Below are positions 1-32,000 of a stretch of DNA of 32,000 bases, piece by piece. Source of the DNA: Candidatus Omnitrophota bacterium (lineage in GTDB: Bacteria; Omnitrophota; Gorgyraeia; Zapsychrales; JANLHA01); assembly GCA_963662715.1 (NCBI GenBank), contig OY759724.1, forward strand, positions 750,001-782,000, given 5' to 3'. The position numbers and the translations under genes are program-made. The notes under the pieces were generated by a model, which searched no databases, was not told the DNA's origin, and was given only the letters and a program-made list of their open reading frames with translations. Position 1 is the stretch's first letter, and every line of letters begins with the position of its first letter.

Positions 1-350
1 TTCCGGGATGATCCGGTTGTTTTCATATGGCGATAAGTTGACCCACAGTTCGTCTTCAGGGACCGTCAAAGCCGCCAGGAAATACTTGATCAGCCTCTGT
101 GACTCGGCTTCAAAAGAGGCTCCTTTTAAATCCCTGTCTCCCGTATCAATAATGAAATCAAACTGCAGAGGGTTGTCCGGATGGATGGTGAGCCCCCGCA
201 GGATCGCCGGCGCGAATGTCTCGCTGATCGAAAGGATCGTCCCGGGCTGCGGCAGAGAGAAGACAGCGGCACGCTCTTCTTTGGCCCACCCCGGTGTCGG
301 CATAAGGACGGACGACAATAAAAAGACCGCCGCCATACCCGCCGATAAAA
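1..350. repeat. Copy A of a ~350-bp near-identical segment (5' coding end of a giant paralog)
   Basis: I aligned it by hand to 8357..8706 and counted about 19 mismatches in 350 nt, only 5 of them in the first 210 nt. Identity collapses beyond ~350 (codons 1-18 and upstream). Confidence 0.85.
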
Positions 351-402
351 AGCGGCGCGGGATTGTTTTCAATTTATGATTTGTCGGCTTATGCCTATTC
401 AT
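1..402 (-). CDS. Giant secreted protein paralog, first 134 codons only (gene continues beyond window start)
   Basis: The minus-strand frame is open from ATG 402..400 down to position 1. My translation is MNRHKPTNHKLKTIPRRFLSAGMAAVFLLSSVLMPTPGWAKEERAAVFSLPQPG...WVNLSPYENNRIIPE. It is almost identical to the first ~130 residues of the 2770-aa ORF (same signal peptide and head domain). It is missing from the ORF track only because the window edge cuts it; + ORF 8..379 is its antisense shadow. It starts 37 nt after the stop of the 2770-aa gene on the same strand. Confidence 0.8.
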   Translation of the reverse strand, partial: MNRHKPTNHKLKTIPRRFLSAGMAAVFLLSSVLMPTPGWAKEERAAVFSLPQPGTILSISETFAPAILRGLTIHPDNPLQFDFIIDTGDRDLKGASFEAESQRLIKYFLAALTVPEDELWVNLSPYENNRIIPE

Positions 403-439: not shown

Positions 440-3400
440 TTAATTCAGCCAGCTGATATCTTTTTCACGGCCGGCATAAAATTTTTCCCGGCTGTCAGAC
501 GGTAAGGCTGACCGCCTTGTCGCCGAAGGAGGACTTTCTTCCGGCCCCTCCTCAGTTAAACCTAACAATAAAGGAATATTCACCGGCGCGATGTTAATGA
601 TAACCGGCAAAAACCCGTCAATTCTCATATCACCCACCGGCTGCTGCGGCAAAGGCAGCGGCACGCCCTGGCCGTCCCGCTTGATCTGCAGATCAAGTGC
701 GGCCGGGTTAAAGTCAATACCGCCTAACGGCGAAGAGGCCGGTTCAGGTTCTTTCCCCAGTTCATAGCGTTTAATCTCCTGCCGATAGTCCCTGGCCCTG
801 TCCTGATAAAACCAGCGCTCGGACAAGACCACGGAATCCACGTCCACGTCTCCCCAATGTTCATAGCGAATATCTTCAATGGCTTTTAAAAGGATCTCCG
901 GTTCATCTCCGGTTAAATCTTCAACAATCCAGCCAAAAGTCGCATGAGCGACAAACGGATCAAACTTTGGGCCCTTTTGCGTCATATCAAAAAATTGATC
1001 CTGCAGGCCCTTCACTTCATCCCGGGCATTGTCCGTCATTAACATCGGGATAAAAATGGCTTTGCCCTGAAACATGCCTATCCCCTGAGCCATGAATTTA
1101 AAGGCACCGACCCGCCCCGGGATAAGCTGATCAAGCACAGCCACGGTTTCCTCTGTCACTTGCTCTTTCTGCCGGGGATCAGTCGTAAAATATGTCACTG
1201 AAGCATACGGCAGCGAGGGCACATCCCAGGCGATCTTATCAATGATCGATTGGGGAAGACGCGCCTTAAGCGCTTCCTGCGCTTTGGCCATGATCGCCTC
1301 CGGCATATTAAAATGCAAGAGATGTTTTAATTCCTCCTCCATCATCCTTTGGTCTTTCTGCACGGGCGTTCGTAAGGCCTCCTGCCACTTCTGTTCAAAG
1401 ATATCCCAGCTGGCCTGATATTCCGGAAGGATGGCGACCGGAGAACTTGCAGTATCAAAACTGTCAGTAATATTAATGACCTCGGCCTTATCTTTTTGAT
1501 GTATTGCGCTTGATACATTTTCATTTAACCGTTTTGTCCATTCGGCATATTCTTCTTCATACCCTTGTCTTGTCGCATTAGGTATTCTGTGCTCACCTAT
1601 AACTTCAGTATCTCTTCCCCACGTTTGGTTTTCCGGGCCGGCACCTTCATTAGGATCCCATAAGATTGGGAATACAAGTTCTTCTGGCTCTCTGGCAATA
1701 CGATCCAGAAGGGCTTCCATGGCCCTTTTGTATAATTTTACTGCGGAAGCACCTCTATATCCCCGACCCCATAAAATATCAGAAATAATTTCGAGTCTCA
1801 TATCAGGATATCTCCGGTGATGGGTGTCGATAAACTCCACGATTTCATCTTCTGTGACACCCCCTGTTCTTAAAATTTCTTCAAGAGCGACAAAAGTTTC
1901 CTTGTTCCTCAGAAAATCTTTGATCTCAAATAGAGAACGAAGGGTTTCTCTGTCTTCAACCTTCCCCAATGCTTGCATAGTCCATATTCTCGAACTCAAT
2001 GGGGCCTCATAAAAACCTTCACTATATTGACTTGCTCTTAGATAAGCACCCGCCAATTCCGCCTCAGACACTTCTAATGTTTTTAATGCTTGATCCACTG
2101 CTTCTAAAAGGTCAATATCCGCCTCGGAAAACATTTTCAGCAATACCGGGACAGCCTTCTTTACGCGTAAATTTTCCAACACTTTAACAGCATTTAATTT
2201 TGCGGATTTCCCTTTTCCTTTCTCAAGGATACTTATGTAAGTGTCAATAAGATCTGAGAGGGCCACCCCCAATTTGTTCAAGGATGATTCCACCGCCTTT
2301 ATCAACGGCTCGTCATCCTCATAAAGCAATCCTGTGAGAACTTCAATCGCCCCTTTATTATCTAAATCAGCTGAATCTCCCAACAAATCTCCTAAAGTAC
2401 GGACCGCCCTAAGCCTGGCGATTCCTTTTCCTTTCTGTGCCGCCATAATATAGGCCTTTACTAATTTTTCTTTTGTTACGCCTAACTTTTCCAGGACTCC
2501 TTCAACGGCATTTAAAATCACTTTATTTTCTTCTGACAATAAATTCAATAAAGGTTCTGCCGCGTTTCCCTTATGGGAATCAGCAATAAAATCAAGAATA
2601 CTCAGTCTCACAGAGTCGGGGACCTGATGGTTGGCAAGTATTTTATATAATACGTCATCTATTCCTGCGGTATTCAACAAGACTGAAAGTATCGGTTCTT
2701 TCCTGTCGGAGTTTATTATCATCCCCGTTAAAATTTTCACGGCGGAGACCAAAGGAAGCTCTTTAGCTATTTCTTTTATTTGATCGTCACGGATATCTTC
2801 TCTAAGGACTACAAGAATCTCCTCTGCTTTATAGGCATGCGTTGTTTTAGGATTTTTAAGGACTCTGATCAAATGCGGTATTATTTTAGCGCCATAACCT
2901 ATCATTCTTTCCTTTGACAGTTTATTGTAATAATCATTACTATCAATTCTTAACAAATGGACATTGCCTCGCATCGTATGAAGTCTCCAAAACTTGTATA
3001 TCTTCCAAGCCGCTGTTAACGCTATCGCCCCGCCGATCGTGTACTCATTGATCAGTCCCGCCTCGGTCAAAGGCCGGGTGAAAGACAAATCGACAGTTTG
3101 TCCGTTTGCGACAGATAACAAACCGCCGTTTAAAACGCCGGCGAGGGTTATCGGCGAACTTTGCAATTCGGAATCAGCTGTCACCACCGGAGAAGAAACA
3201 GGACTGTCTGACGTACCGGTTTGCACCAATTCTATTCTTTCTGGAATAACGCTGACAAGTTCATCCCGTGCCGGCTCTATTACTTTTACTTGATCCCATG
3301 CCTCAACCCATCTCGTCTTTCTGGGCATTGTATAACCGGAAACATAGGAGACATCATCATAATCCTCATATTCATCCAAATAGCCCTCATGATGAATCGT

Positions 3401-6400
3401 CTCGGTCACCGCCTCATGATGTTTGTGTTCCGTCTTTTCCGGCCGGTAATTCACCATAAAATTATCACCGGATAAAACAATTTCTAATCCTTCGATGAAA
3501 AACGCGGCAACCTTATTCTTCGGCAATATCGCATTAAGACTCGCATAGGTTCGGTTGACGGCTAATGTTCGTGCATCGGTTAACCCATATATATTTGATA
3601 TATGTATAAAGGCGTCTATAACACCTAAACTTGTTGCCTCGAACATAACATCATAAAGCGCATCTAAAGCCTTGACGTCCGCCAGTTCCGCAAGTCCCCG
3701 GGCTATGCTTTCGGCATGATCTTTACTTCCCTGCAAGGCAGTGATAAGAGCCGTCACAAACCGTCCCTTATCAACACCGGCATTGAGCAGATCCCGGCTG
3801 AATCCCGGTCGTGAAAAAAGTGTCAACGCTCTTTCCAAATTAATAACTTTTATAGCCTTGATATTCAAATCTTCAAGATATTCATCAAGTCGGGACAGGC
3901 CAAACGCCCCTTCTTCATGCTGTTTTAAAATCCGCAAGTAATCCGCCAGCCCCGCCCGGGTATTCAGGCCCAAAGACTGCAGGAAAGACAGCACGTCCGC
4001 CCTAATGATATAAAGGTCTTCTCCGTCCTTTTCCCTGGCCAGGATATCTTCACCTAAACGCATATACCTGTCATCAGCCGTCTCTCTCAAGTATTCGGCC
4101 AATCTTCTTACCGCGTGTCTCTTAAGGTTATAACCGGCGCCCGGATACGGCTGATCAACCCACTCTACAAGTATGCCTGCAAAACTCTCCTCATCTCTCA
4201 TTCGTATAATATCCAACAGTTCCGCCTCTAAAACTCTCATCTGTCCAGGAGTCGGAGATCTCAGATTTCTTGCCCACTGGATATATGTTTGAAGGTCTCC
4301 CTGAACGCCGAACCGCTCCAAAGCAAGCATAAATAAGACACGGTTTTCCGGCGTAACAGCTTCATTCAAACGCGATTCCAGAAGCGGGACAGCCGTCTTT
4401 CTGTTGAGTCCGGCTGTTATTTGAATAGCCGCGTCACGGTCAACAGCATTAGTGCTCCTTAACAGGGATTCCAGGCTCCCCAACCTTCTCTTTCTTATAA
4501 CAGTATCCGTTATTTGGGCAACCACCGCCGGTTCTGACAACAATCGATACAAGTCCTTTTTGTCGAGACTTTTTACCCGTCTTAATCTTTCGCCCTCGGG
4601 CGCCGGCTGCACTTCTTCGATGTCTTTAAAAGCTCCCGGCATACGGTTCAATGTCCTTATGATCCGTCCATAATCTTCTCTGGTCGAGCAACCCAATGAT
4701 TGCAACATTTCATCCGCCGCTTCCCTGATAACGACAATTTCCGCTGATTGTTCTCCCTCGCCAATGGCTCTATCCTTGCCGAACTTATCAAAGAGGGGCT
4801 GCCGGTTTTCTGCCTGAAGTTCAAACATCCTTCCCACGGCAAATATTCTCATTGCTTGATCAACGTCATCCCCCAACCATGCTGTTAAAAGGCTTTTATA
4901 GTTTTCCTGATCATATTCCTTTAAAACATCCATCCCCTTAAAGACCTGCTCAGGAATACGCCCTGCGGAAGCTTCATGCACTCCTTGCAGCCACTCCAAT
5001 AAAGCCGGGACGTGCCCCTGTTGACCAAGCCGCGCTAAAATATAATTCAAGAGGACACGCATGCCTGCATCGTTTTTTGCCTTTATCAATAAAGGTTGCA
5101 GAAGCGGGATCGCAGCCCGCATATTTAAATGGGCAATGAGGTTTAACGCAAAAACATGAATATCCCTGTCAGGATGATCCAGTAAGGACCTGATATGGTA
5201 TAAAGTAAAGTCCCCTGCAAGACTGGTTAATGATTCCAATATGCTCTCTTTAACAGCGGCCCCCCGGTGATCTCTGTCTAATCTGAAGCGGAAATCATAC
5301 AACAAAGAAATCAACGGCAAAATAGCCTGTTTGCTTTGATATATTCCCATACCTTTAATGGCGTCCATGATTTCAGAATAATTATCAGTTAAATCAAGGC
5401 CTTTCTTTGTCACACGGAGAAGAATTCTTCTATACACTTCAGCTTTTTCTTCATCACTCAAATCATATTGCTCCAAGAGTTTTCTTTTGGCCTTATACCT
5501 TGTCCAGGAATAAGAACCATCCAAGCCATAAAACGCACCGCGCTTTGTTGTGTGCCGCCATAATCCCCATACCGTCCCCAGCCCCCCGGCGGCTATCGCA
5601 GCCCCGATGGAATAAGCATTAATGAACTCTGCGCCGGTAACCGGAGAACTGACATACTTCTGCCCTTCCTCTAATAATGGAGAAACAAAAGACAGGTCGA
5701 CTTGCTGTCCTTTAGCAATGGAAGTGAATCCATTCTTGAGCGCCCCGGCAATAGTCCCGGGGATAAAACCGGACAGGTTAATACTTGTGATTCCCGATGA
5801 AACGCGTTGAATATCCGCGGCTGTCATCTTTTCCACCGGGTAAACGTTGCCTTTCAAGTCGCGATAAAACGGGTTATCTCTTTCCACCGCTTCTTTAATG
5901 CGTTTCATCTGCCTGTTCAGGCTTCTGGGAACAAAGATGTCTCCCCGTCTCCCCGCCCACTCCGGCAGTAACTGTTCATTCATCAGGCGAAGGTTAAGAA
6001 TAATACCATGCTCTTTCGCAACCTGATCAAAAAGCGAAAAAAACAACTCATAGCCAATGAGATTGACAATATAACGAATTTTACGCATATCAAATTCATC
6101 TAATGAAACTGGTTCTCCAAAAGTCGAAAAACTGGTTTTTCGATCAATCAGCTCCCGCACTTCCGCAAACTCTATCCAGAATTGGCTTGATTCAACAAAC
6201 TTACCAATTAAATCCTGAACCGTCTTCAAATAAGTGTTCATGTCCGAGGTCGAAGTTGCAATGCGGTAAGTTTCGGATATGCCGGATTCTTCCAGCTTTT
6301 CTTTAACACGCGCTCCCAATGCCTGATAAAAATCTCGGCGGGCCTGCTCCAGCCTCCGGGTTTCTTCTCTTGTCAACCGCACTTGACTTTGCCTGCCAAG

Positions 6401-8752
6401 AGAAGACGGTTCTGCAACTTTGGCAATAATGTTCAACTCAGGTATCTTTAGATCTTGTTCGGGCAAAATATTAACAGGAAGCATTTCTAAAGCGGGTTTA
6501 TTTTGTTGGCTCTGATGATAATCGTCCAGGAGTTCCCGCGTCACTATCAAATAAAAATTCTGGTATTTATCCACCGCAATGGCCTGCACCGGATAACGTT
6601 TAAACCCGTCCGGACCTTGTGTATAAAAATAATCCTTAATCCCTTCTGCGGCATAATCTGTGGTTAAATCAGTAAAAGAAAAGATTATTTTTCGATCACT
6701 TAAATTAATCTCCGTAGCAGCTACCAGCTTTTTGTTCGTATCACGCACGCCTACTGTAAACATCAACTCCTTCATACCTAATTGCGACGTCTGCCAATGT
6801 ATTGAAAGATATTTATTATTAAATTCGATTAATCCATACTGCCCCTGCGGGTCCTGCACGACATTCACCCCTTGTTGTTTTTCCAATGCTTGGGCGAGCT
6901 GGGTGTAAAGATTCTTGACCTTCCCCTCTGCCGAAATCGCCGAGGAAGCATTGTCAGGTGGGATAGGAGTAGATATCGATATAACCGAAATTCTTTCCGG
7001 GATAACGACTTTTTCTTCATCCATTTTTTGTAGCATTAACGATCCGGTAACATATCCATCAGTATGATCCTCTCCTTCTCCGACAATTACATATCCAGGA
7101 GGGATAGAAGATCGGTCCACGGTTTCACCATTGCTAATGGCGGCAGATCCATAACTTATTCTTTCCCCGGGAATATATTGTATTTCTTCTTTTTCAGGAA
7201 TATACTCAACTTTAAAATCATTCCCTCCTTTTCTGATCTTCCAGGCCTCATGAAGATGCCTTAAAACTTCGTCATCAGCTTTTAATTTTGTCGATTTTCC
7301 TTCCAGCACTTGTTGAACTCTTCCCCTCAAATCCTCCTCAACTTGAAAAAGATTTATGACGATAGGATCATCTTTAGCTGTTAATTTCAAGTTAGATAAT
7401 GCTGTGTTAACTCTTTGAATATTCGAACTCCCAAGCTTGAATAAATTCCAGCTAATATATAACCGCTTTAATATCGGGGAAGAACTCCCTTCTGTTGGGG
7501 ATAAATCATCCAACCCTTTATCTGCATTCTCAACCAGCTCGATGCTCACCCGTCTGTCCTTACCCTTCGTCGACTCAGGCTGCGTGATCGCCGAACTCAC
7601 GCGTCCCGGCAGCCGGCCCGGCTGGCCGCGCAAGACCTCCAGTTTGTCCACCGTCACAACGCCTACGCCCAACCCCCCGGAAAAATATTTCCGCGGTATC
7701 ACCTGCTGCGTCGCTTCATCGTAATCTTCCCGTATATAGTTGTAGACGCCTTGCTTGAACGCGTCCAGATACTGCTGGTATATCTTCTCCTTTATCTCTT
7801 TGTCTTCAACATCGATCCCCTTCACCTTGTTCCGGTCCATGTACACCTGGCCCAATAAACTGTCCCGCAAATTCTTCTTGTACCAGGTCGCCAGGATCAT
7901 TGAGTTGTAGATCTGCCGCAAGTTCGCGAACGTCTGCCCTTCATTCACTTCCTTCTCTATCGCCGGAAGGATAATATCCTTGACGATCTTTGAGGACAGT
8001 TCATTCAGCTCCTTGGCCTGCCCTTCTGACTGTTTGTGCAACCCCAGGTCTTTGCTCTGCAGATTGTGCTCTAACGCCAGATAATCCTCTTCCAGCATCA
8101 CCTTCAAGTGCCGTTCCACCACAAACGCGCTGCCCTCATGCTCATAGACAACCGCCTTATCCGGCACGATCCATACCTTATTAAATGTGTTTACCGGGAT
8201 GTTTGTCGTGCCGTACAGCTCATAGGCCTTTTTATAGACTTTATTCCAGAACGCCTGGCCCAGGTCCTCTTCCGGATACATCAACGAAGCGGTGAGCTGT
8301 TTCAGCAGGTAATCCTGGGAGAGCATGTCCTTGCCCATTTCCGTAACGCCCAACCCTTCGGGGATGATCCGGTTGTTTTCATATGGCGATAAGTTGACCC
8401 ACAGTTCATCTTCGGGGACCGTCAAAGCCGCCAGGAAATACTTGATCAGCCTCTGCGACTCGGCTTCAAAAGAGGCTCCTTTTAAATCCTTGTCTCCCGT
8501 ATCAATAATGAAATCAAACTGCAGAGGGTTGTCCGGATGGATGGTGAGCCCCCGCAGGATCGCCGGGGCAAATGTCTCGCTGATCTTAAGGATCCTCCCC
8601 GGCTGCGGCAGGGAGAAGACAGCAGCCCGCTCTTCTTTGGCCCACCCCGGTGTCGGTATAAGGACAGACGACAATAAAAAGACCGCGGCCATGCCGGCCG
8701 ATAAAAGGCGGCGGAATATAATATTCGACTTTGTTATAAATAACTCAAACAT
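440..8752 (-). CDS. Giant (2770 aa) secreted modular protein: signal peptide, conserved head domain, two hydrophobic-helix + HEAT-repeat arrays, conserved C-terminal tail motif
   Basis: This is the longest ORF in the window. The N-terminus has a basic stretch (FRR), a hydrophobic core (LLSAGMAAVFLLSSVL) and PTPGWA/KEE, which looks like a signal peptide. Residues ~45-375 form the head domain shared with the 27311..32000 ORF. Recurrent A[IV]P[LV]L..L motifs indicate HEAT/PBS-lyase-like repeats. The C-terminal GGIDFNPAALDLQIKRDGQGVPLPLPQQPV...FLPVIINIAPV motif is shared with the other giant. All + strand ORFs inside it are short antisense shadows. Confidence 0.9.
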   Translation of the reverse strand: MFELFITKSNIIFRRLLSAGMAAVFLLSSVLIPTPGWAKEERAAVFSLPQPGRILKISETFAPAILRGLTIHPDNPLQFDFIIDTGDKDLKGASFEAESQRLIKYFLAALTVPEDELWVNLSPYENNRIIPEGLGVTEMGKDMLSQDYLLKQLTASLMYPEEDLGQAFWNKVYKKAYELYGTTNIPVNTFNKVWIVPDKAVVYEHEGSAFVVERHLKVMLEEDYLALEHNLQSKDLGLHKQSEGQAKELNELSSKIVKDIILPAIEKEVNEGQTFANLRQIYNSMILATWYKKNLRDSLLGQVYMDRNKVKGIDVEDKEIKEKIYQQYLDAFKQGVYNYIREDYDEATQQVIPRKYFSGGLGVGVVTVDKLEVLRGQPGRLPGRVSSAITQPESTKGKDRRVSIELVENADKGLDDLSPTEGSSSPILKRLYISWNLFKLGSSNIQRVNTALSNLKLTAKDDPIVINLFQVEEDLRGRVQQVLEGKSTKLKADDEVLRHLHEAWKIRKGGNDFKVEYIPEKEEIQYIPGERISYGSAAISNGETVDRSSIPPGYVIVGEGEDHTDGYVTGSLMLQKMDEEKVVIPERISVISISTPIPPDNASSAISAEGKVKNLYTQLAQALEKQQGVNVVQDPQGQYGLIEFNNKYLSIHWQTSQLGMKELMFTVGVRDTNKKLVAATEINLSDRKIIFSFTDLTTDYAAEGIKDYFYTQGPDGFKRYPVQAIAVDKYQNFYLIVTRELLDDYHQSQQNKPALEMLPVNILPEQDLKIPELNIIAKVAEPSSLGRQSQVRLTREETRRLEQARRDFYQALGARVKEKLEESGISETYRIATSTSDMNTYLKTVQDLIGKFVESSQFWIEFAEVRELIDRKTSFSTFGEPVSLDEFDMRKIRYIVNLIGYELFFSLFDQVAKEHGIILNLRLMNEQLLPEWAGRRGDIFVPRSLNRQMKRIKEAVERDNPFYRDLKGNVYPVEKMTAADIQRVSSGITSINLSGFIPGTIAGALKNGFTSIAKGQQVDLSFVSPLLEEGQKYVSSPVTGAEFINAYSIGAAIAAGGLGTVWGLWRHTTKRGAFYGLDGSYSWTRYKAKRKLLEQYDLSDEEKAEVYRRILLRVTKKGLDLTDNYSEIMDAIKGMGIYQSKQAILPLISLLYDFRFRLDRDHRGAAVKESILESLTSLAGDFTLYHIRSLLDHPDRDIHVFALNLIAHLNMRAAIPLLQPLLIKAKNDAGMRVLLNYILARLGQQGHVPALLEWLQGVHEASAGRIPEQVFKGMDVLKEYDQENYKSLLTAWLGDDVDQAMRIFAVGRMFELQAENRQPLFDKFGKDRAIGEGEQSAEIVVIREAADEMLQSLGCSTREDYGRIIRTLNRMPGAFKDIEEVQPAPEGERLRRVKSLDKKDLYRLLSEPAVVAQITDTVIRKRRLGSLESLLRSTNAVDRDAAIQITAGLNRKTAVPLLESRLNEAVTPENRVLFMLALERFGVQGDLQTYIQWARNLRSPTPGQMRVLEAELLDIIRMRDEESFAGILVEWVDQPYPGAGYNLKRHAVRRLAEYLRETADDRYMRLGEDILAREKDGEDLYIIRADVLSFLQSLGLNTRAGLADYLRILKQHEEGAFGLSRLDEYLEDLNIKAIKVINLERALTLFSRPGFSRDLLNAGVDKGRFVTALITALQGSKDHAESIARGLAELADVKALDALYDVMFEATSLGVIDAFIHISNIYGLTDARTLAVNRTYASLNAILPKNKVAAFFIEGLEIVLSGDNFMVNYRPEKTEHKHHEAVTETIHHEGYLDEYEDYDDVSYVSGYTMPRKTRWVEAWDQVKVIEPARDELVSVIPERIELVQTGTSDSPVSSPVVTADSELQSSPITLAGVLNGGLLSVANGQTVDLSFTRPLTEAGLINEYTIGGAIALTAAWKIYKFWRLHTMRGNVHLLRIDSNDYYNKLSKERMIGYGAKIIPHLIRVLKNPKTTHAYKAEEILVVLREDIRDDQIKEIAKELPLVSAVKILTGMIINSDRKEPILSVLLNTAGIDDVLYKILANHQVPDSVRLSILDFIADSHKGNAAEPLLNLLSEENKVILNAVEGVLEKLGVTKEKLVKAYIMAAQKGKGIARLRAVRTLGDLLGDSADLDNKGAIEVLTGLLYEDDEPLIKAVESSLNKLGVALSDLIDTYISILEKGKGKSAKLNAVKVLENLRVKKAVPVLLKMFSEADIDLLEAVDQALKTLEVSEAELAGAYLRASQYSEGFYEAPLSSRIWTMQALGKVEDRETLRSLFEIKDFLRNKETFVALEEILRTGGVTEDEIVEFIDTHHRRYPDMRLEIISDILWGRGYRGASAVKLYKRAMEALLDRIAREPEELVFPILWDPNEGAGPENQTWGRDTEVIGEHRIPNATRQGYEEEYAEWTKRLNENVSSAIHQKDKAEVINITDSFDTASSPVAILPEYQASWDIFEQKWQEALRTPVQKDQRMMEEELKHLLHFNMPEAIMAKAQEALKARLPQSIIDKIAWDVPSLPYASVTYFTTDPRQKEQVTEETVAVLDQLIPGRVGAFKFMAQGIGMFQGKAIFIPMLMTDNARDEVKGLQDQFFDMTQKGPKFDPFVAHATFGWIVEDLTGDEPEILLKAIEDIRYEHWGDVDVDSVVLSERWFYQDRARDYRQEIKRYELGKEPEPASSPLGGIDFNPAALDLQIKRDGQGVPLPLPQQPVGDMRIDGFLPVIINIAPVNIPLLLGLTEEGPEESPPSATRRSALPSDSREKFYAGREKDISWLN
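8357..8706. repeat. Copy B of the ~350-bp near-identical segment (5' coding end of the 2770-aa gene)
   Basis: Same manual alignment as for 1..350, at an offset of 8356 nt. Confidence 0.85.
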
Positions 8753-8868
8753 AAAAATTTTTTAGGGTGGACAGGGGCACAAAAATACACTTATGAATTT
8801 TTTCCAAGAGAGGAACTCTTGAAAATACATGAAAGGGTGTAACAGGGTGAAATACTAATATATATTAG

Positions 8869-8897
8869 AGTATATATGATTAATAGAAAAATGTCAA
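8869..8897 (-). promoter_or_regulatory. Sigma70-like promoter for the giant-gene pair (TTGACA-17-TATACT)
   Basis: The minus strand reads TTGACA (8897..8892), then a 17-nt spacer tttttctattaatcata, then TATACT (8874..8869), about 115 nt upstream of the ATG at 8752. The perfect 14-bp palindrome CTAATATATATTAG (8855..8868) abuts the -10 box. Confidence 0.55.
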
Positions 8898-8951
8898 TGA
8901 ATATTGATATTAGAAGAAATTAGGCTTTTTTGCAATTTTGAGCCGAAAAGA

Positions 8952-9341
8952 TTATTCCTCCCAGGCGACTTCCATTCCTACGGCAGGGTCACTGTCCTGT
9001 TGTCTGGCCTGGGATGAGGGCAAAAACTGCACATTACTGGCCACAACTTTCAGGCGGCTGCGTTTTTCTCCGGATTCCGTTGTCCACTGATCCTGCCGGA
9101 GTCTCCCGGTAACGACAACCGGACTTCCCTTTCTTAAATATTTGCTGCAATTCTCCGCCATCTGCCCCCAAACATCAACATCCACAAAAGCCGTATCTTT
9201 CTTTTTTTCACTGTTGATGATATAGGTCCTGTTGCTGGCAACGACAAAAGAAGCGACCTTCCTTCCTCCCGCAACATCTCGCAGGACCACGTCTCTGGCT
9301 AAGTTGCCCCCGAGGATAACACTGTTAATTTCTATCGACAT
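8952..9341 (-). CDS. ssb: Single-stranded DNA-binding protein (OB fold), short form
   Basis: The translation is SSB-like: INSVILGGNLARDVVLR...FVVASNR...FVDVDVWGQMAENCSKYLRKGSPVVVTGRLRQDQW...RLKVVASNVQFL. I place the start at ATG 9341 because AAGGAG (9353..9348) lies 5 nt upstream of it. The GTG at 9347 used by the ORF track overlaps that SD. Confidence 0.85.
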   Translation of the reverse strand: MSIEINSVILGGNLARDVVLRDVAGGRKVASFVVASNRTYIINSEKKKDTAFVDVDVWGQMAENCSKYLRKGSPVVVTGRLRQDQWTTESGEKRSRLKVVASNVQFLPSSQARQQDSDPAVGMEVAWEE

Positions 9342-9409
9342 AGGCACTCCTTTTCTCCGGCTTGGGGTGAACCTTGTTATTGATATTTCCCCGCCTTTTT
9401 CGCTTATTT

Positions 9410-10376: not shown

Positions 10377-10409
10377 TCCGTCGGGATCTTCAGCATATCA
10401 ACAGGAACC

Positions 10410-12240: not shown

Positions 12241-12269
12241 TTGCTGCTGGCAAAACCCGGTTTTATATT
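12241..12269 (+). promoter_or_regulatory. Candidate sigma70-like promoter (TTGCTG-17-TATATT) for the riboswitch-controlled transcript
   Basis: TTGCTG lies at 12241..12246, followed by a 17-nt spacer and TATATT at 12264..12269, about 30 nt upstream of the candidate aptamer. This rests on sequence pattern only. Confidence 0.35.
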
Positions 12270-27310: not shown

Positions 27311-30300
27311 TCAGAAAACATCCTGCTTGGCGCCGGCGTCTAACGATGACAGCTGATCTTCATCGCCGGGCTCAACGTCCGAATCCGAACCGAATAACAG
27401 CGGGAGGTTGGGAACAGGGGTGATATTAATAATAACAGGTAAAAATCCTCCGATATCCATCTGCTGAACAGGCTGCTGCGGCAGAGGCAAAGGAACGCCT
27501 TCCCCGTCACGCTTGATCTGCAGATCCAACAGTTGAGGATTAAGATTGATACCTCCATACTGCCCGTTATCAACAACCTCTTCCGTTATCGCCGATTGAA
27601 ACAGGGGTGACGATGCAACCGCTTGCTGAATGATCTCCTGGCTAGGCAGATAAAGATCTCTGCCGTCGGACAATTCCGGCCTTCTCAGCTTCTCGACATT
27701 ACCGTCAGCAGCGAACAAATTTTTCATAACTTCATTCCATTTGGCTATATCCTGCTCAGACATGTCACGGACCGGCTCCAGCAGACGATCAACTTCAGCC
27801 AGCAATCCCTTTTCCCGGCTTAATTCCAGGAAAACCTCTTGGAGAGCTTCTTCCGGATTAGCCGAATGCACCGCATCTTCAAAAATGGTTTCCGTGCCCC
27901 AGGCCTGGTAAAGAGCCGTCTCAATATCCCCCTCGACTAAATTATCATAAATAGTTTTTAAAGGTTCCAGACCTTCTCTCCCGAGTAAATCTTCAAGATG
28001 ATGGATCAGGTCCCCCCGTCTGTTATAAGCCGTGCCGTTGTTGGAGTGATGCGCAATCACTCTGCGCAGCTGCTCGCCGCTCAGCTTAAGCCGTTCATAG
28101 GTCGCAAGGAAATCCGCAACAGAGGGCTCACTGCTCGCGATATTCTGAACGCCCTTCTCATTAATATACTGCCAGAAAAAAGGATCTCTGTCTTCCACGG
28201 GTTGATCCAACGCCGTCAATACGGCTTCCTTATGCTCCAGCAAGTCGTTTATCAACCGGGCCCGCTGGGTCTTCATCTTAAGAGCAAGCTGTAACAACTG
28301 CAATTGGGCCCTGGACTGACTCTTTTCCACATCAACTTTAGGGGAGGTCCGCAGGGCATTATACAGAAGCTGTTTACTCTCTGTATTGAACCTGTTGCCC
28401 AATCTTGCCAGTCCGACCAAAAGATTGCCGGCCGACGGGCGCCGGCCTCCGCCTTCCTGCTGGCTTTTCCGGCCGCTATACTTAATCAGATAACCGTTTC
28501 TTATTTCGTATTCCCCGTATTTCAGCCCGCGCAACAATTCATTATGAGTGAGGCCGGTTTTAATGACATCGACTCTCTGCCCGGTGCGCACGTCAATCAC
28601 ATCAAACAGTTCCGGCATCGTCCCGCCCCAGACCCCGAACATAAAAGCGCCGTTGGTAAGGGCCTTCATCATACTTGTCGCAGACGCTTCCAGAAACTCG
28701 TCCGACAACATAATCGTCGCCGCCACCCCGCGGAAAATCAGCGGAGCGTCATAAGGGTTGTAATTTTCAAGAAAGGCAATTTGATCCCCGAGGCCCAGAT
28801 CCTTGACCATGCCTTTCAACTCTTCGAACAGCTGATTGGCTTCGTGCCCAAAGATTCTTCCGCCCAGAGCCAGCCGCATCTTGGAATCCCGGAACTGTTT
28901 AAGCGCTCTGGGGTCCTTTAAAATCCCGAGGATCTCTTTATAAATGTCCGGCCCTTTATAAGGCACCTGCCGGCGAAGGTTCGCCGCAACAGGGTTCTGA
29001 ATTAAAACATCCTTCAATTTCCCGAGTTTCTCATCCAAGGCTCTCCATTGTCCCTCATTCTTAACATCCGCTAAAGCCTGATTAAGCAGGCCCGCATATT
29101 CTTCCCGTAAAGCCCTGACGTCCGTCTGGCTGTCCAGCCCCGATTCCTTGAGGAGCTGGGCAAGCCACTGGGATCCACCCAAATCCTGCGTCTGGTTCTC
29201 CTGTAACCAGAGATAAAGGTCCATCATATACAGCACCTTAATCTGCTCAAACTGGCTCTGAAAACGGGCCAGCTCAGCGGGGTTTTCTTCCAGTTTGTCA
29301 TAAAACTGCACGTCGTCTGTTTGAGCGGTTAAACCCAACGATACTTTGTAATCATCAATGATGCTTCTCAGTTCATGGCCCTGCCACTGGTCAAAAAGGA
29401 CCCCGTTGCTGTTACGCTGCTCTCCCTGATACCATTGCCAAATTTTATGCGCAAGATCAGGAAGCAGATTGTTTCTCAAGACCGGAGTATGTTCATACAC
29501 ACTGACCCCCATAAAAAGATCGACATTTTCCGCGGCATACCTCACGATATCGATAACATCCCGGCCGCCTTCCTTAAAGACAATGGCCTGCCGGTCTTTC
29601 TCCTCAAAACCCATTAACTTAAAGGCATATTCCGGAGGGTTGTACATCGCCGGCTTATAAACACTGTGGTTGATCTCGGCCCTCATGGCTGTTTCCGTGA
29701 CAGGCGGCTGCTCAATCCCAAGCTCGGCGAGATCCATTTGTTCGTTTTTCGGCAAGCTGACGAAAATTTCATTTTCCACCCAGGTGACTTTACTTTTTAT
29801 TCTCCCGTCCGCCTGTAACATCCTGGCGAACCGCTGGGTCGCCTTGTTGTACACAACCATCTGAATGACCCGCCAGTCCTTGGCCGGGGAAATCTCATCA
29901 GAATATATCTCGTCAAAAATATACTGTTTGTTCCCGTCATCATCAAGATAATAGGCGTCTTCATAAAACTCCGGAAGCGTCGTGAAGGAAGACTCCAGTT
30001 CATAAAGATCAACGGTGATCGGGCGCCCCTGCGCCTGCGCCAGCAATTCCTTCATTTTGGCGAATTTTTCATCATCCAATTCAGAAAAAGCTTCCCGGGC
30101 CTCATCTTCTAATCCTTTAAGCACATACTGGCTCTGATCGAGATACCCCATCTGGATCAGACGCGAGGAAAGGGCTTCGGCCAGTCCGCCATCTACGCCA
30201 AGCTGTTCCAGTTCCTGCTTGGAAACAGCTCGGCCGACCAGCTGTTTCGCCTTGTCAAAAACGGCTTTGTTTCTGAAATCCGTATCATTCAACCGTAACG

Positions 30301-32000
30301 TAACACTCTTCTGCGCCGGCGGCAACACGTCCCTGATTAACTGCCCCAGAGCGACACTCCCGTCTGCGATATAGTTTTTGAAAATCTCTTCCGGGACTTC
30401 TCTAACTGTTCCTTTTATACGGTTGTTCAACGTATTAAAAGAAACAACATCAACGCCCGCCCTCTTCCAGGCGACAACGAGATCATGCATCAACGCGCCC
30501 AAACCTCCGCTCATATTGACCTGAGAAATGAAACGGGTCAGTTCTTCCCCATATTTGGCTGCCAGCGTGTCGACCAGAAATCCGCGGTCCAGGGAGGCCT
30601 CCATCTGCAAACTGATAACCGTGCGGTCCATAAGATCGGGAACATTTTGGGCCGCCCAGGAATTTTCATCAACACCCTGCAGGTCAGCCTCCGTCGTCTC
30701 CCCCATCCGGACCGGCGCCGCTTTCTTGCCGTTTAACACGTCAACGGCCTCGGCCATAAAATCCAATATCTGCAAAGCGCTCAAAAGTTTCCGCTGATCT
30801 ATTCTTGATAAACTTGTCCGCACCGATGTCTCCGGCAGTTGCAGCGGAGATGAGACCGCTCCCTGTCCGTCTATCGACAAGCGGACAACATCATCCATCG
30901 CATCAGCCGCGGCCTTATTTCCGACTTCGGTGAGATTCACCTGGATATTAATAGGAGAACTCCCTGAAGCTGTTCCGGCCCCGCGCTCCTGATAACGGGC
31001 CGGCAGGTTTCCGCGAAGGTCTTCCCTTATATGTTTCACCGCCGTAAGCTGCATCCCTCCGGAAAAATACTTCCGGGGAATCGGCTGGGTCTCCTCCGGG
31101 TGGTTCTCTTCGCGGATATAATTGAACACGCCTTTTTCAAAAGCCATGAGATATTGTTGATAAATTTTCTCGCTGATCCGCTTGTCCTCGACATCAATGC
31201 CTTTTGTTCTGGTCTTATTGACATAAACCTTCCCCAGCAGGGATTGCCGCAGATTGTCTTTATACCAGGAGGCTAAAATGACCGAGTTATATATCTGCCG
31301 AAGGTTGGAAAACGTCTTGCTTTCATTCACTTCCTTTTCAAGTTCCGGGATGAGGATCTCCCGGACAATATCAGAAACATCCCCGCTGATTTCTTTGGCT
31401 TCATGGTCAGAGACATGATCAAGCCCGAATTTTTTAGTGCCCCGGGTTTTCTGTAAAGCAAGATAATCCTGTTCAAGCATAACCTTTAAATGGCTGTCGA
31501 CCACATAAGCTCCGCCGGCTTTCTCGTAAACGACAGCTTTATCCGGAACAATCCAGATTTTATTAAAAGTATTGACCGGGATATTGATCGTCCCGAAACG
31601 CCGGTAAGCTTTCTCATAAGCCCTTTGCCAGAATTCCTGCCCCAGTTTTTCTTCCGGATAAATTAACGAAGCAGAAATTTGTTTCAGCAAATAGTCTAAA
31701 GCTAAAAGATCCCGTCCCATTTCCGTCTTCCCGAAGGCCTTCGGGATAATACGGTCTTTTTCATAAGGGGAAAGGTTGACCCACATGTCTTCTTCCGGAA
31801 TTGTGAGAGCAGCCAGAAAATACTTAATTAAGTCCGTGGCTTGACGCCGGAATTCCTTCCCGTCAGGGTCCTCGTCTCCGGGATCAACAATAAAATCCAG
31901 ACGTAAGGGCTGGTCAGGATAAATCCGGACGCCCTGGATAATCATCGGGTTAAAAGTGCCGCTGAGACGGAGCATCTTCCCGGGAGGCGGCAGGTCCGGC
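27311..32000 (-). CDS. Giant secreted modular protein paralog (at least 1562 aa, N-terminus beyond window end) with head domain, embedded GT35 alpha-glucan phosphorylase-like domain and C-terminal tail motif
   Basis: The track ORF starts at an internal Met (31975). The frame stays open to 32000 and reads ...PDLPPPGKMLRLSGTF, which aligns with SLPQPGRILKISETF of the 2770-aa protein, so the true start is outside the window. Head-domain blocks LIKYFLAALT, WVNLSPYE, NIPVNTFNKIWIVPDKAVVYE and PRKYFSGG are shared. The phosphorylase motifs SGGLGALMHD and FLENYN...EASATSMMKALTNGA are present. The tail reads GGINLNPQLLDLQIKRDGEGVPLPLPQQPV...FLPVIINITPV. Confidence 0.9.
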   Translation of the reverse strand, partial: PDLPPPGKMLRLSGTFNPMIIQGVRIYPDQPLRLDFIVDPGDEDPDGKEFRRQATDLIKYFLAALTIPEEDMWVNLSPYEKDRIIPKAFGKTEMGRDLLALDYLLKQISASLIYPEEKLGQEFWQRAYEKAYRRFGTINIPVNTFNKIWIVPDKAVVYEKAGGAYVVDSHLKVMLEQDYLALQKTRGTKKFGLDHVSDHEAKEISGDVSDIVREILIPELEKEVNESKTFSNLRQIYNSVILASWYKDNLRQSLLGKVYVNKTRTKGIDVEDKRISEKIYQQYLMAFEKGVFNYIREENHPEETQPIPRKYFSGGMQLTAVKHIREDLRGNLPARYQERGAGTASGSSPINIQVNLTEVGNKAAADAMDDVVRLSIDGQGAVSSPLQLPETSVRTSLSRIDQRKLLSALQILDFMAEAVDVLNGKKAAPVRMGETTEADLQGVDENSWAAQNVPDLMDRTVISLQMEASLDRGFLVDTLAAKYGEELTRFISQVNMSGGLGALMHDLVVAWKRAGVDVVSFNTLNNRIKGTVREVPEEIFKNYIADGSVALGQLIRDVLPPAQKSVTLRLNDTDFRNKAVFDKAKQLVGRAVSKQELEQLGVDGGLAEALSSRLIQMGYLDQSQYVLKGLEDEAREAFSELDDEKFAKMKELLAQAQGRPITVDLYELESSFTTLPEFYEDAYYLDDDGNKQYIFDEIYSDEISPAKDWRVIQMVVYNKATQRFARMLQADGRIKSKVTWVENEIFVSLPKNEQMDLAELGIEQPPVTETAMRAEINHSVYKPAMYNPPEYAFKLMGFEEKDRQAIVFKEGGRDVIDIVRYAAENVDLFMGVSVYEHTPVLRNNLLPDLAHKIWQWYQGEQRNSNGVLFDQWQGHELRSIIDDYKVSLGLTAQTDDVQFYDKLEENPAELARFQSQFEQIKVLYMMDLYLWLQENQTQDLGGSQWLAQLLKESGLDSQTDVRALREEYAGLLNQALADVKNEGQWRALDEKLGKLKDVLIQNPVAANLRRQVPYKGPDIYKEILGILKDPRALKQFRDSKMRLALGGRIFGHEANQLFEELKGMVKDLGLGDQIAFLENYNPYDAPLIFRGVAATIMLSDEFLEASATSMMKALTNGAFMFGVWGGTMPELFDVIDVRTGQRVDVIKTGLTHNELLRGLKYGEYEIRNGYLIKYSGRKSQQEGGGRRPSAGNLLVGLARLGNRFNTESKQLLYNALRTSPKVDVEKSQSRAQLQLLQLALKMKTQRARLINDLLEHKEAVLTALDQPVEDRDPFFWQYINEKGVQNIASSEPSVADFLATYERLKLSGEQLRRVIAHHSNNGTAYNRRGDLIHHLEDLLGREGLEPLKTIYDNLVEGDIETALYQAWGTETIFEDAVHSANPEEALQEVFLELSREKGLLAEVDRLLEPVRDMSEQDIAKWNEVMKNLFAADGNVEKLRRPELSDGRDLYLPSQEIIQQAVASSPLFQSAITEEVVDNGQYGGINLNPQLLDLQIKRDGEGVPLPLPQQPVQQMDIGGFLPVIINITPVPNLPLLFGSDSDVEPGDEDQLSSLDAGAKQDVF

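What the first reader, a model, noticed from the sequence alone, without database searches (positions are those of the whole stretch)
557..724. Conserved C-terminal tail motif GGI(D/N)xNP..LDLQIKRDG.GVPLPLPQQPV..M.I.GFLPVIINI.PV shared by both complete giant C-termini
The 2770-aa protein ends ...PASSPLGGIDFNPAALDLQIKRDGQGVPLPLPQQPVGDMRIDGFLPVIINIAPVNIPLLLGL plus a 38-aa charged tail. The other giant ends ...GGINLNPQLLDLQIKRDGEGVPLPLPQQPVQQMDIGGFLPVIINITPVPNLPLLFG plus a 25-aa acidic tail (nt 27389..27556). The two stretches are also visibly similar at the DNA level (for example cttgatctgcagatc in both). A short conserved motif, then a proline-rich stretch, then a hydrophobic segment at the extreme C-terminus recalls sorting or anchoring signals such as LPXTG, PEP-CTERM, GlyGly-CTERM and the T9SS CTD. 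The sequence matches none of those. I have a vague memory of GGIDLN-type C-termini in hypothetical proteins of uncultivated phyla, but I cannot verify it.
Basis: partly seen in the sequence, partly recalled or inferred. Interest (0 to 1): 0.7.

Follow-up and report, generated by a model that had tools for sequence, protein, structure and literature searches.

The report
Omnitrophota cargo-protein C-terminal signature module
The shared tail is real: it is the unannotated, about 55-residue C-terminal hallmark of a very large Omnitrophota protein family, always paired with one N-terminal module around exchangeable enzyme 'cargo', and it fits no known sorting signal.

Summary
Observation confirmed. 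Window 557-724 (-) and 27389-27556 (-) encode a 56-aa stretch that is 77% identical between two large proteins whose middles are unrelated.

- **Distribution.** A profile of the tail finds 5,294 protein clusters. In all 150 listed hits it lies at the extreme C-terminus. It also finds 337 genomic sites. The best 80 are titled Omnitrophota, 'uncultured Planctomycetales' (unverified) or unnamed, often several per genome and in tandem.
- **No known family.** Pfam, NCBIfam, PDB sequences and Foldseek give no match.
- **Not free-standing.** Every complete carrier also has a cleavable-looking signal peptide and the same ~320-aa N-terminal module.
- **Cargo.** Between the two modules sit unrelated domains, including complete hexokinase, PGK, aldolase, sucrose synthase, radical SAM and HEAT repeats.
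- **Unlike sortase-type signals.**
  - The hydrophobic segment is the most conserved part, with three near-invariant prolines.
  - The extension after it is acidic, not basic.
- **Structure model.** AlphaFold places the hydrophobic half against the N-module (pLDDT 84-87).

Best reading (about 0.4): a sequence-specific docking peptide that works with the N-module to localise or assemble exported cargo. A processed anchor or a secretion signal remains possible. The family is undescribed and its function is untested.

The parts
557..724 (-). C-terminal signature module of protein A (residues 2677-2732, GGIDFNP...LLLGL)
   Evidence: Translation. 77% identical to the B tail. In register with the family profile, whose boundaries are G-G (100%) and G (96%).
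440..556 (-). Post-module extension of A (38 aa, mixed charge, ends ...REKDISWLN) plus stop codon
   Evidence: Extensions are variable across the family, with median length 30 aa. 57 of 314 tails (18%) end in LN, mostly S-x-L-N. The positional ortholog in L001 ends ...REENISWLN.
755..7600 (-). Variable cargo region of A (about residues 385-2666): HEAT repeats, two internal related segments with weakly hydrophobic stretches, six SSP punctuation motifs
   Evidence: Pfam HEAT_2. Hydropathy. SSP positions. No similarity to B or to the ortholog's middle.
7601..8611 (-). N-terminal family module of A (residues 48-384)
   Evidence: 60% identical to B. 1,446 database relatives. Present in every complete tail carrier. 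AlphaFold pLDDT about 85-97 in a homolog, with no PDB fold match.
8639..8752 (-). Signal-peptide-like leader of A (residues 1-38, ...PTPGWA|KEE)
   Evidence: Hydropathy 1.94. 84% of family members have an [AGSVT]x[AGS]|Q site just before the N-module.
27389..27556 (-). C-terminal signature module of protein B
27311..27388 (-). Acidic 25-aa extension of B plus stop codon
27557..30994 (-). Variable cargo region of B (weak alpha-glucan phosphorylase / GT1-like similarity)
   Evidence: All these hits are below the curated cut-offs.
30995..31993 (-). N-terminal family module of B (the leader is cut off by the window end)
1..402 (-). 5' end of a third family gene (C), starting 38 nt downstream of A's stop. 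The leader and the first ~95 residues of the N-module are visible.
   Evidence: Translation. The DNA alignment A5 shows 91% mean column identity to the 5' end of A overall. By my count from that alignment it is about 96% after the divergent first ~45 nt.

Best explanation
**What is shown.**
- The 56-aa stretch is the C-terminal signature module of a very large modular protein family. The family was found here only in Omnitrophota-type genomes.
- The domain order is: Sec-type, apparently cleavable signal peptide; conserved ~320-aa N-terminal module; exchangeable cargo of 100 to more than 4,000 aa; flexible linker; this ~55-aa module; and a variable, mostly acidic extension.
- The window holds three members: A, B and the 5' end of C.

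**What is inferred.**
- The module is not a lipid anchor or a sortase-type signal.
- It is a sequence-specific binding peptide. Its invariant hydrophobic half, I-(D/E)-G-F-x-P-V-I-I-N-I-x-P-V-x-N-L-P-L-L-L-G, docks onto the family's own N-terminal module.
- Docking could be in cis, closing the protein so that the cargo is held as a loop. It could also be in trans, chaining paralogs head to tail.
- Either way, the two constant ends would act together as handles that localise or assemble diverse cargo outside the cytoplasmic membrane, in the periplasm or a surface coat.
- The conserved ends, arranged in tandem arrays, would also provide homology for swapping cargo between genes.
For: **Always terminal.**
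- In all 150 listed profile hits the match reaches to within about 110 aa of the C-terminus.
- In 95 genomic ORFs the match ends 1-65 aa before the stop.

**One-to-one link with the N-module.**
- All 55 N-module hits among the profile-search proteins are signal-peptide-bearing tail carriers.
- About 60 of 66 ORFs that lie fully inside their locus have both modules. Three of the exceptions (L043, L050, L078) are split by a frameshift. Three others (L048, L057, L063) are short tail-only ORFs that I did not resolve.
- Every N-module ORF without a tail is cut by the locus end or interrupted by an in-frame stop or frameshift.
- Among relatives of P0054, 102 have both modules. Nine have the N-module but no tail, and these look truncated.

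**Cargo is unrelated between members.** It includes complete hexokinase, PGK, class-I aldolase, sucrose synthase, and radical SAM with B12-binding and HAD domains. It also includes Glu dehydrogenase, UDPGP with a receiver domain, and HEAT repeats.

**A positional ortholog has different cargo.** The L001 gene sits in the same RNase J - SSB - family gene synteny as A. It keeps the N-terminal 490 aa at 66% identity and the C-terminal 125 aa at 59% identity. Its middle is about 300 aa and unrelated, against 2,150 aa in A.

**Sequence-specific conservation.**
- The module is sharply bounded, from GG (100%) to G (96%).
- Nearly every column is conserved, including the hydrophobic stretch, three near-invariant prolines and a conserved Asn.
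- Only 17 of 38 identical residues between A and B share a codon.

**AlphaFold2 of the 549-aa member P0317.**
- The N-module is confident.
- The tail segment 491-510 has pLDDT 84-87 and is extended.
- Its single beta-bridge residue (492) can only pair with the N-module, because all other strand residues lie between 41 and 332.
- The same kind of segment modelled alone has pLDDT 72-77, pTM 0.17 and no structure.

**Linkers.** The regions on both sides of the cargo are predicted disordered.

**Tandem arrays and a recent N-module copy.** Tandem arrays are common. The adjacent genes A and C share a near-identical N-module at the DNA level.
Against: **The docking evidence is indirect.**
- It rests on one model whose coordinates and PAE I could not inspect.
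- The gain in confidence over the isolated tail is modest (84-87 against 72-77).
- Direct-coupling analysis on 181 sequences (Meff 166) put five N-module x tail pairs in the top 20. Inter-module pairs make up 37% of all pairs, so this is not an enrichment.

**A membrane helix is not excluded.** The hydrophobic stretch reaches transmembrane-like hydropathy in about half of the members (median 1.59; 1.99 in A).

**Cargo and location conflict.** Kinases, dehydrogenases and radical-SAM enzymes are hard to reconcile with a location outside the cytoplasm. The export inference rests only on leader features. No signal-peptide predictor was available.

**No experimental data exist.**
Confidence: 0.4

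Rival explanations
1. It is a C-terminal sorting and anchoring signal of a new type. After Sec export, the hydrophobic stretch holds the protein in the inner membrane. An unidentified dedicated enzyme then recognises the conserved motif, cleaves it and attaches the protein to the envelope. This would work like the exosortase, rhombosortase or sortase systems.
For: - The element is at the extreme C-terminus, with a motif, a Pro-rich stretch and a hydrophobic stretch.
- An N-terminal signal peptide is present on nearly all members.
- There are many copies per genome.
- Hydropathy is >= 1.6 in 48% of tails.
Against: - There is no basic cluster. The first 8 residues after the hydrophobic stretch are acidic in 79% of tails and positive in 9%. 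That disfavours a stop-transfer anchor.
- The hydrophobic stretch itself is the most conserved part and carries three near-invariant prolines.
- The invariant GG lies 35 residues upstream of the hydrophobic stretch, not adjacent to it.
- It is never found without the N-module.
- No profile match to any curated sorting domain.
- No recurrent neighbouring enzyme gene in 80 loci.
Confidence: 0.2
2. It is a secretion signal. The module, possibly together with the N-module, is recognised in the periplasm by an outer-membrane translocon or a host-delivery apparatus. The cargo enzymes are then moved to the cell surface or into a host or prey cell. The logic is that of T9SS CTD substrates: a Sec signal plus a C-terminal domain.
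For: - The layout is Sec-type leader plus C-terminal conserved element.
- The cargo consists of cytoplasm-type enzymes that would make sense inside another cell.
- Omnitrophota are proposed predators or symbionts with large surface proteins (PMC10066038; bioRxiv 10.1101/2023.11.21.568195).
Against: - No fold or profile resemblance to the T9SS CTD. There is no beta-sandwich, and the module alone is unstructured.
- No conserved translocon gene was found nearby.
- It does not explain why a 320-aa N-module is obligatory.
Confidence: 0.2
3. It is a monotopic, re-entrant membrane or lipid anchor. The P-x6-P-x3-P hydrophobic stretch forms a short proline-kinked hairpin that dips into one leaflet. This resembles the oleosin proline knot.
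For: - Three near-invariant prolines are spaced i, i+7, i+11 within a 19-20-aa hydrophobic stretch. From my own memory, this is the spacing of the oleosin PX5SPX3P knot.
- Acidic flanks argue against full membrane spanning.
Against: - The stretch is far shorter than the ~72-residue oleosin hairpin.
- The conserved Asn residues and the conserved polar first half (QIKRDG) are not explained.
- AlphaFold places the stretch on the N-module.
Confidence: 0.1
4. It has no function of its own. The tail is a conserved paralog end kept as a DNA homology arm for cassette exchange, or is simply inherited.
For: - Tandem arrays are common.
- The N-modules of the adjacent genes A and C are near-identical at the DNA level.
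- The cargo differs between positional orthologs.
Against: - Synonymous sites in the A and B tails are largely randomised (17 of 38 codons shared), while the protein sequence is held across 5,294 clusters.
- The local DNA palindrome is not conserved in the family.
Confidence: 0.05

Closest known systems
Tripartite C-terminal sorting signals (LPXTG/sortase, PEP-CTERM/exosortase, GlyGly-CTERM/rhombosortase, PGF-CTERM/archaeosortase)
   Same: - Extreme C-terminal position.
- A conserved motif followed by a hydrophobic stretch.
- An N-terminal signal peptide on the same protein.
- Many carriers per genome.
   Different: - No profile match.
- The conserved element is 55 aa long, not 3-6 residues.
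- The hydrophobic stretch is itself sequence-conserved and proline-rich.
- The terminal extension is acidic and 20-40 aa long, instead of a short basic cluster.
- It is always coupled to one N-terminal module.
- No associated enzyme was identified.
T9SS C-terminal domain (CTD) substrates of Bacteroidota
   Same: Sec signal at the N-terminus, diverse cargo, and a conserved C-terminal element shared by many proteins of a genome.
   Different: - The CTD is an 80-100-aa beta-sandwich. This module is about 55 aa and is predicted unstructured on its own.
- No sequence or profile similarity.
- Different phylum.
- An extra obligatory N-module.
Dockerin-cohesin assembly (cellulosomes)
   Same: A short C-terminal module on diverse enzymes that, in my preferred reading, binds a dedicated receptor module to assemble multi-enzyme structures outside the cell.
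   Different: - No dockerin (PF00404) similarity and no Ca-binding repeats.
- Receptor and ligand would sit on the same polypeptide.
- Binding is inferred from a model only.
YSIRK-type signal peptide paired with LPXTG in Gram-positive surface proteins
   Same: A sequence-conserved N-terminal leader co-occurs with a C-terminal signal on the same proteins. This suggests a dedicated route.
   Different: Here a whole 320-aa module accompanies the leader. There is no sequence relation. Omnitrophota are presumed diderm (my own knowledge; not tested here).
Giant and long membrane-associated proteins of Omnitrophota (West-Roberts et al. 2023 bioRxiv 10.1101/2023.11.21.568195; bioRxiv 10.64898/2026.06.07.730766)
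   Same: - Same phylum.
- Same odd content of cytoplasm-type domains behind signal peptides: HEAT, radical SAM, GT1 / starch synthase, receiver, HATPase_c, HAD.
   Different: - Term searches of those papers (for C-terminal, N-terminal, motif, sorting, anchor) found no description of a shared N-terminal module or this C-terminal module.
- The members here are mostly 0.5-5 kaa, and 81% have no internal TM-like segment.

Membership tests
Sortase/exosortase/rhombosortase/archaeosortase-type C-terminal sorting signals | Match to a curated profile (NCBIfam/TIGRFAM or Pfam models for LPXTG, PEP-CTERM, GlyGly-CTERM, PGF-CTERM and similar) | tested here: not met
   No hit on the tails even at E <= 10 or E <= 1 in NCBIfam or Pfam. 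Both tail subtypes were tested.
Sortase/exosortase/rhombosortase/archaeosortase-type C-terminal sorting signals | Short signature motif directly followed by a transmembrane helix | tested here: inconclusive
   A 19-aa hydrophobic stretch exists, with Kyte-Doolittle 1.99 in A, 1.48 in B and a family median of 1.59. It carries three near-invariant prolines and a conserved Asn. The invariant GG lies 35 residues upstream.
Sortase/exosortase/rhombosortase/archaeosortase-type C-terminal sorting signals | Cluster of basic residues after the helix at the very C-terminus | tested here: not met
   The extension is net negative in 75% of 314 tails. Its first 8 residues are acidic in 79% and positive in 9%. 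The median length is 30 aa.
Sortase/exosortase/rhombosortase/archaeosortase-type C-terminal sorting signals | Signal occurs on otherwise unrelated proteins | tested here: inconclusive
   Cargo regions are unrelated. However, every complete carrier shares the same leader and N-module.
Sortase/exosortase/rhombosortase/archaeosortase-type C-terminal sorting signals | Dedicated processing enzyme co-occurs in the genome | not testable with these tools
   Whole genomes could not be scanned. No recurrent neighbour gene in 80 loci. Window neighbours are housekeeping genes.
T9SS C-terminal domain | 80-100-aa beta-sandwich fold and a match to the CTD profiles | tested here: not met
   No profile hit. 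AlphaFold of the tail alone shows no regular structure, with pTM 0.17. In full-length context it is extended.
T9SS C-terminal domain | N-terminal Sec signal plus C-terminal element on diverse cargo | tested here: met
   84% of 200 members have an [AGSVT]x[AGS]|Q site after a strongly hydrophobic leader. Cargo is diverse.
Dockerin | Duplicated Ca-binding loop-helix repeats (PF00404) | tested here: not met
   No Pfam hit on any tail.
Oleosin-type proline knot hairpin | Three prolines spaced P-x6-P-x3-P | tested here: met
   Alignment columns 68, 75 and 79 are Pro in 99%, 99% and 86% of sequences. The comparison to oleosin is from my memory.
Oleosin-type proline knot hairpin | Knot centred in a ~70-residue uninterrupted hydrophobic hairpin | tested here: not met
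   The hydrophobic stretch is only about 19-20 aa. It is flanked by polar and acidic residues.
Omnitrophota leader + N-module + cargo + C-module family (defined here) | N-terminal ~320-aa module, with a hydrophobic leader before it where the N-terminus is present | tested here: met
   A has the leader (residues 1-38) and the N-module (residues 48-384). B has the N-module, but its leader lies outside the window. C has both in its visible 134 aa.
Omnitrophota leader + N-module + cargo + C-module family (defined here) | 55-aa GG...G module within about 110 aa of the C-terminus | tested here: met
   Met for A and B. The 3' end of C lies outside the window.

The most novel reading that the evidence does not exclude
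The two constant modules define a phylum-specific export and assembly system. Complete, normally cytoplasmic metabolic enzymes are carried across the inner membrane behind a conserved signal peptide. Examples are hexokinase, PGK, aldolase, GAPDH-like domains, sucrose and starch synthases, and radical-SAM enzymes. The cargo is then clipped together or to the envelope through N-module/C-tail docking. This would build an extracytoplasmic multi-enzyme coat, or an arsenal delivered to host or prey cells. Cargo would be shuffled between tandem genes by recombination in the conserved ends.
Probability: 0.3. Interest if true: 0.9.

Novelty: new variant of a known kind. Interest (0 to 1): 0.7.

Why it matters
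- **Scale.** The module and its N-terminal partner define one of the larger protein families I could find with no annotation. There are at least 5,294 clusters at 50% identity, in a phylum with almost no cultured members.
- **Relevance to an open problem.** Large proteins full of cytoplasm-type domains behind signal peptides are a recognised puzzle in Omnitrophota.
- **What the constant handles offer.**
  - A sequence definition of the family, so its members can be recognised and counted.
  - A short peptide and a 320-aa domain that can be expressed and tested for binding.
  - A C-terminus whose processing can be checked by proteomics.
- **If the docking or export reading holds.** It would be a new way of localising or assembling enzymes outside the bacterial cytoplasm. 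It would also be a natural cargo-swapping scaffold.
- **If it is a processed sorting signal.** It would imply a still unknown sorting enzyme.

Tried and rejected
- **Known domains.** Pfam and NCBIfam scans of whole proteins and isolated tails, both subtypes, at permissive E-values gave nothing. PDB sequence search with the tail profile and the N-module gave nothing. Foldseek of the full-length model against the PDB gave no match at E <= 1e-3.
- **Candidate partner or sorting enzyme in the neighbourhood.** I clustered all ORFs >= 100 aa from 80 loci. Only the family itself recurs (72 loci). The next clusters (9-12 loci) are antisense ORFs or unrelated membrane or coiled-coil proteins.
- **DNA-level signal.** In A, LDLQIK is encoded by an 18-nt perfect palindrome. 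The core GATCTGCAGATC occurs in 2 of 45 family sites, against about 1 expected. I rejected it as a recombination site.
- **Recent gene conversion between the A and B tails.** Rejected from codon comparison.
- **ORF 8..379 (+).**
  - It looked like a conserved small gene and has no Pfam hit.
  - The window-wide Rfam scan found no RNA there.
  - It is the antisense reading of the N-module of a third family gene.
- **Direct-coupling analysis of N-module against tail.** Underpowered and inconclusive.
- **The look-up of encoding contigs for A and P0365.** Not on record, so the 3.36-Mb source contig could not be surveyed.
- **Short 'standalone' tail proteins in the first search.** They reflect a length window in that tool that I inferred from the hit lengths, together with contig fragmentation. 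They are not a free-standing small protein.
Full report
**1. Observation**

- The minus strand of the window carries two large ORFs.
  - A is at 440..8752 and is 2770 aa.
  - B is at 27311 to beyond 32000. It shows 1562 aa in the window. By alignment to A, only the ~45-aa leader is missing.
The extensions are 38 aa and 25 aa, at nt 557-724 and 27389-27556.
- BLASTP shows three things.
  - The 56-aa tails are 77% identical (E = 1e-21).
  - A 337-aa N-terminal region is 60% identical (E = 1e-125).
  - The middles share nothing.
- The quoted 15-mer is present at both loci. Otherwise the DNA is only about 67% identical. Just 17 of 38 conserved residues use the same codon. Conservation therefore acts on the protein.

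**2. How widespread it is**

- A search with the bare tail returned 30 short fragments. One is labelled Candidatus Omnitrophica. Judging from the hit lengths, that tool only returns proteins of about 0.9-1.75 times the query length.
- A profile of the two window tails plus these 30 (alignment A2) was scored against 1.84 billion cluster representatives.
  - It found 5,294 proteins at E <= 1e-3 and 2,548 at E <= 1e-10.
  - Among the best 150, carriers range from 80 to 4,969 aa. The match always ends within about 110 residues of the C-terminus.
- A scan of species-representative genomes found 337 confirmed sites.
  - The best 80 come from about 50 assemblies. Their titles read Omnitrophota/Omnitrophica, Candidatus Zapsychrus, 'uncultured Planctomycetales' (I did not verify that label), or just 'bacterium'.
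  - Up to four sites come from one assembly.
- Re-searching these loci found 95 tail-bearing ORFs, often adjacent.
- Protein A lies on a 3.36-Mb contig. With B and C, that suggests at least five members in that genome. I could not confirm that they share one contig.

**3. The tail is one end of a modular family**

- All 55 N-module hits among the profile-search proteins are signal-peptide-bearing tail carriers. The module sits at residues ~40-360, with full-length matches at E = 1e-109 to 1e-155.
- In the genomic loci, about 60 of 66 tail ORFs that lie fully inside the locus start with the N-module.
  - Three exceptions (L043, L050, L078) are frameshift-split genes.
  - Three others (L048, L057, L063) are short tail-only ORFs that I did not resolve.
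- Every N-module ORF without a tail is cut by the locus end or interrupted by an in-frame stop or frameshift.
- Among relatives of the 821-aa member P0054, 102 have both modules. Nine have the N-module but no tail, and these look truncated.
- The leader is strongly hydrophobic in 96% of members. In 84% it is followed by an [AGSVT]x[AGS]|Q site immediately before the N-module.
- 81% of 205 members have no TM-like segment in the middle.
- The middles are extremely diverse. About 40 Pfam families occur in 120 proteins. I confirmed complete or near-complete copies of the following, all lying between the two modules:
  - hexokinase;
  - phosphoglycerate kinase;
  - class-I aldolase;
  - a GAPDH C-domain;
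  - UDP-glucose pyrophosphorylase plus a receiver domain;
  - B12-binding, radical-SAM and HAD domains together;
  - glutamate dehydrogenase;
  - sucrose synthase.
- A has HEAT repeats. B has weak phosphorylase/GT1-like similarity, below the curated cut-offs.

**4. Turnover of the middle**

- Locus L001 is syntenic with the window, in the order RNase J - SSB - family gene.
- Its family gene keeps A's N-terminal 490 aa at 66% identity. It also keeps the C-terminal 125 aa at 59% identity, including the ...ISWLN end.
- Its middle is about 300 aa and unrelated, against 2,150 aa in A.
- A third family gene (C) starts 38 nt downstream of A and runs off the window. Its N-module DNA is near-identical to A's.
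  - The alignment shows 91% mean column identity overall.
  - By my count it is about 96% after the first ~45 nt.
  - For comparison, A against B is about 66%.
- The constant ends are therefore sites of recent duplication or conversion.

**5. Anatomy of the module**

- In 180 distinct tails the module is sharply bounded, from G-G (100%) to G (96%). Flanks on both sides carry little information.
- The first half, GGI(D/N)(L/F)NP-x-LLDLQIKRDG-x-GVPLPLP-x-QP, is replaced in 58 of 315 tails (about 18%) by a second subtype.
- The second half, I-(D/E)-G-F-x-P-V-I-I-N-I-x-P-V-x-N-L-P-L-L-L-G, is shared by both subtypes. Its prolines are 99%, 99% and 86% conserved, at spacing i, i+7, i+11.
- The hydrophobic stretch has a median Kyte-Doolittle score of 1.59 (1.99 in A, 1.48 in B). 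That is borderline for a membrane helix.
- The extension after it has a median length of 30 aa. It is net negative in 75% of tails. Its first eight residues are acidic in 79% and positive in 9%. 57 of 314 tails (18%) end in LN, mostly S-x-L-N, as A does.

**6. Structure**

- AlphaFold2 of the 549-aa member P0317, with 66 full-length relatives, gave mean pLDDT 72.5 and pTM 0.66.
  - The N-module is modelled at pLDDT about 85-97. It is an alpha/beta domain.
  - The linkers are disordered.
  - The first half of the tail has pLDDT about 50-55.
  - The hydrophobic half (residues 491-510) has pLDDT 84-87 and is extended.
  - Its one beta-bridge residue (492) must pair with the N-module, because every other strand residue lies between 41 and 332.
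- The window's tail alone gives pTM 0.17 and no secondary structure. Its hydrophobic block has pLDDT 72-77.
- Foldseek found no PDB relative at E <= 1e-3. Sequence searches of the PDB found none.
- A mean-field DCA on 181 sequences placed several N-module x tail pairs in the top 20. Two examples are N103 with the F of GGIDF, and N169 with an I of the hydrophobic stretch. This is not enriched over chance and is confounded by shared ancestry.

**7. Interpretation**

- *Shown.* This is a real, sharply defined, unannotated C-terminal module. Among the genome records I could inspect it occurs only in Omnitrophota-type assemblies. It is obligately paired with an N-terminal module and a Sec-type leader around exchangeable cargo.
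- *Inferred (confidence about 0.4).*
  - The invariant hydrophobic half is a docking peptide for the N-module, in cis or in trans.
  - The two ends together localise or assemble the cargo outside the cytoplasmic membrane.
- *Against the sortase-type reading.*
  - The extension is acidic.
  - The hydrophobic stretch is sequence-specific and proline-rich.
  - The tail is never independent of the N-module.
  - There is no profile hit and no recurring neighbour enzyme.
- *Rivals that remain.* These are a processed anchor of a new type (0.2), a secretion or host-delivery signal (0.2), a monotopic proline-kinked anchor (0.1) and no protein-level function (0.05).
- *Unresolved tension.* ATP-, NAD- and FeS-dependent cargo sits behind what looks like a cleavable signal peptide.

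**8. Literature**

I queried three Omnitrophota papers by term search, not by reading them in full. The terms were C-terminal, N-terminal, motif, sorting, anchor, signal peptide and giant.

- The papers are West-Roberts et al. 2023 (bioRxiv 10.1101/2023.11.21.568195), the 2026 complete-genome preprint (10.64898/2026.06.07.730766) and Seymour et al. 2023 (PMC10066038).
- The passages returned describe giant or long proteins with the same odd domain content and signal peptides.
- None of them describes a shared N-terminal module or this C-terminal module.
- I therefore treat the family as undescribed in the sources available to me.

**9. Verdict**

The sorting-signal interpretation is partly supported.
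- I rate the module a new, sequence-unrelated variant of C-terminal localisation or assembly tags. A substantial chance remains that the whole two-handle cargo system is something not yet described.

Noticed in passing
window 1-402 (-): A third family gene (C) starts at an ATG at 402, 38 nt after A's stop, and runs off the window. Its leader and N-module DNA are near-identical to A's 5' end: 91% mean column identity overall, and about 96% by my count after the first ~45 nt. A against B is about 66%. This points to recent duplication or gene conversion between tandem neighbours. ORF 8..379 (+) is only the antisense reading of this N-module.
   Followed up: yes
window 12299-12376 (+), with ORF 12514-12747 (+): A c-di-GMP-I-GGC riboswitch (RF03167, 65 bits, gathering score 59) lies here. 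It is followed by a terminator-like hairpin with a T-run (about 12388-12427). A 77-aa ORF with a signal-peptide-like start follows; it has no Pfam hit.
   Followed up: partly
A residues 424, 1035, 1853, 1865, 2436, 2673; B residues 347, 383, 1463; family-wide: The short motif (A/S)-S-S-P-(V/I/L) punctuates module boundaries. There are 307 occurrences in 209 members, against 50 expected from composition. 27% of members have one within 45 aa upstream of the tail. It could be a linker, a processing site or a modification site.
   Followed up: partly
A residues ~990-1065 and ~1865-1925 (window about 5560-5785 and 2980-3160, minus strand): Two related internal segments (...Q(Q/T)VDLSF..PL.E.G... 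then Y(S/T)IG(A/G)AIA...W...W(R)LH) each contain a weakly hydrophobic stretch. The first scores Kyte-Doolittle 1.34. The second is below 1.3. They may be membrane-dipping or repeat boundaries.
   Followed up: no
L001 (JAKQKX010000069.1) 4897-10288 compared with window 440-14317: This is a syntenic locus in a related MAG. The order RNase J - SSB - family gene is conserved. The family gene is about 940 aa instead of 2770 aa, with the same ends and an unrelated middle. The window has about 3 kb extra (PspC-domain protein, an 89-aa ORF, a 561-aa ORF and the riboswitch) between RNase J and SSB.
   Followed up: partly
window 680-697: In A, LDLQIK is encoded by an 18-nt perfect palindrome, CTTGATCTGCAGATCAAG. 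From my own reading it contains GATC and CTGCAG sites. The core is not conserved at the DNA level in the family (2 of 45 sites), so it is a codon coincidence.
   Followed up: yes
window 21718-26316 (-): A MoxR-type AAA ATPase (332 aa) lies directly downstream of an unusually long 1191-aa protein that has a DUF58 hit near its C-terminus. The first ~990 residues of that protein have no Pfam match.
   Followed up: no
window 10410-12095, 15875-17089, 20320-21627 (all -): Three ORFs of 561, 404 and 435 aa have no Pfam match. The 435-aa ORF lies next to a radical-SAM gene (18980-20311) and a DUF362/4Fe-4S gene (17841-18941).
   Followed up: no
family-wide (P0317, P0054, P0369, P0026, window A): A second, optional conserved element sits at the very C-terminus of the extension: (R/K)E(P)x2-4(I/V)S-x-L-N-COOH. 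57 of 314 tails (18%) end in LN, in both tail subtypes. A has it (REKDISWLN). B does not.
   Followed up: partly
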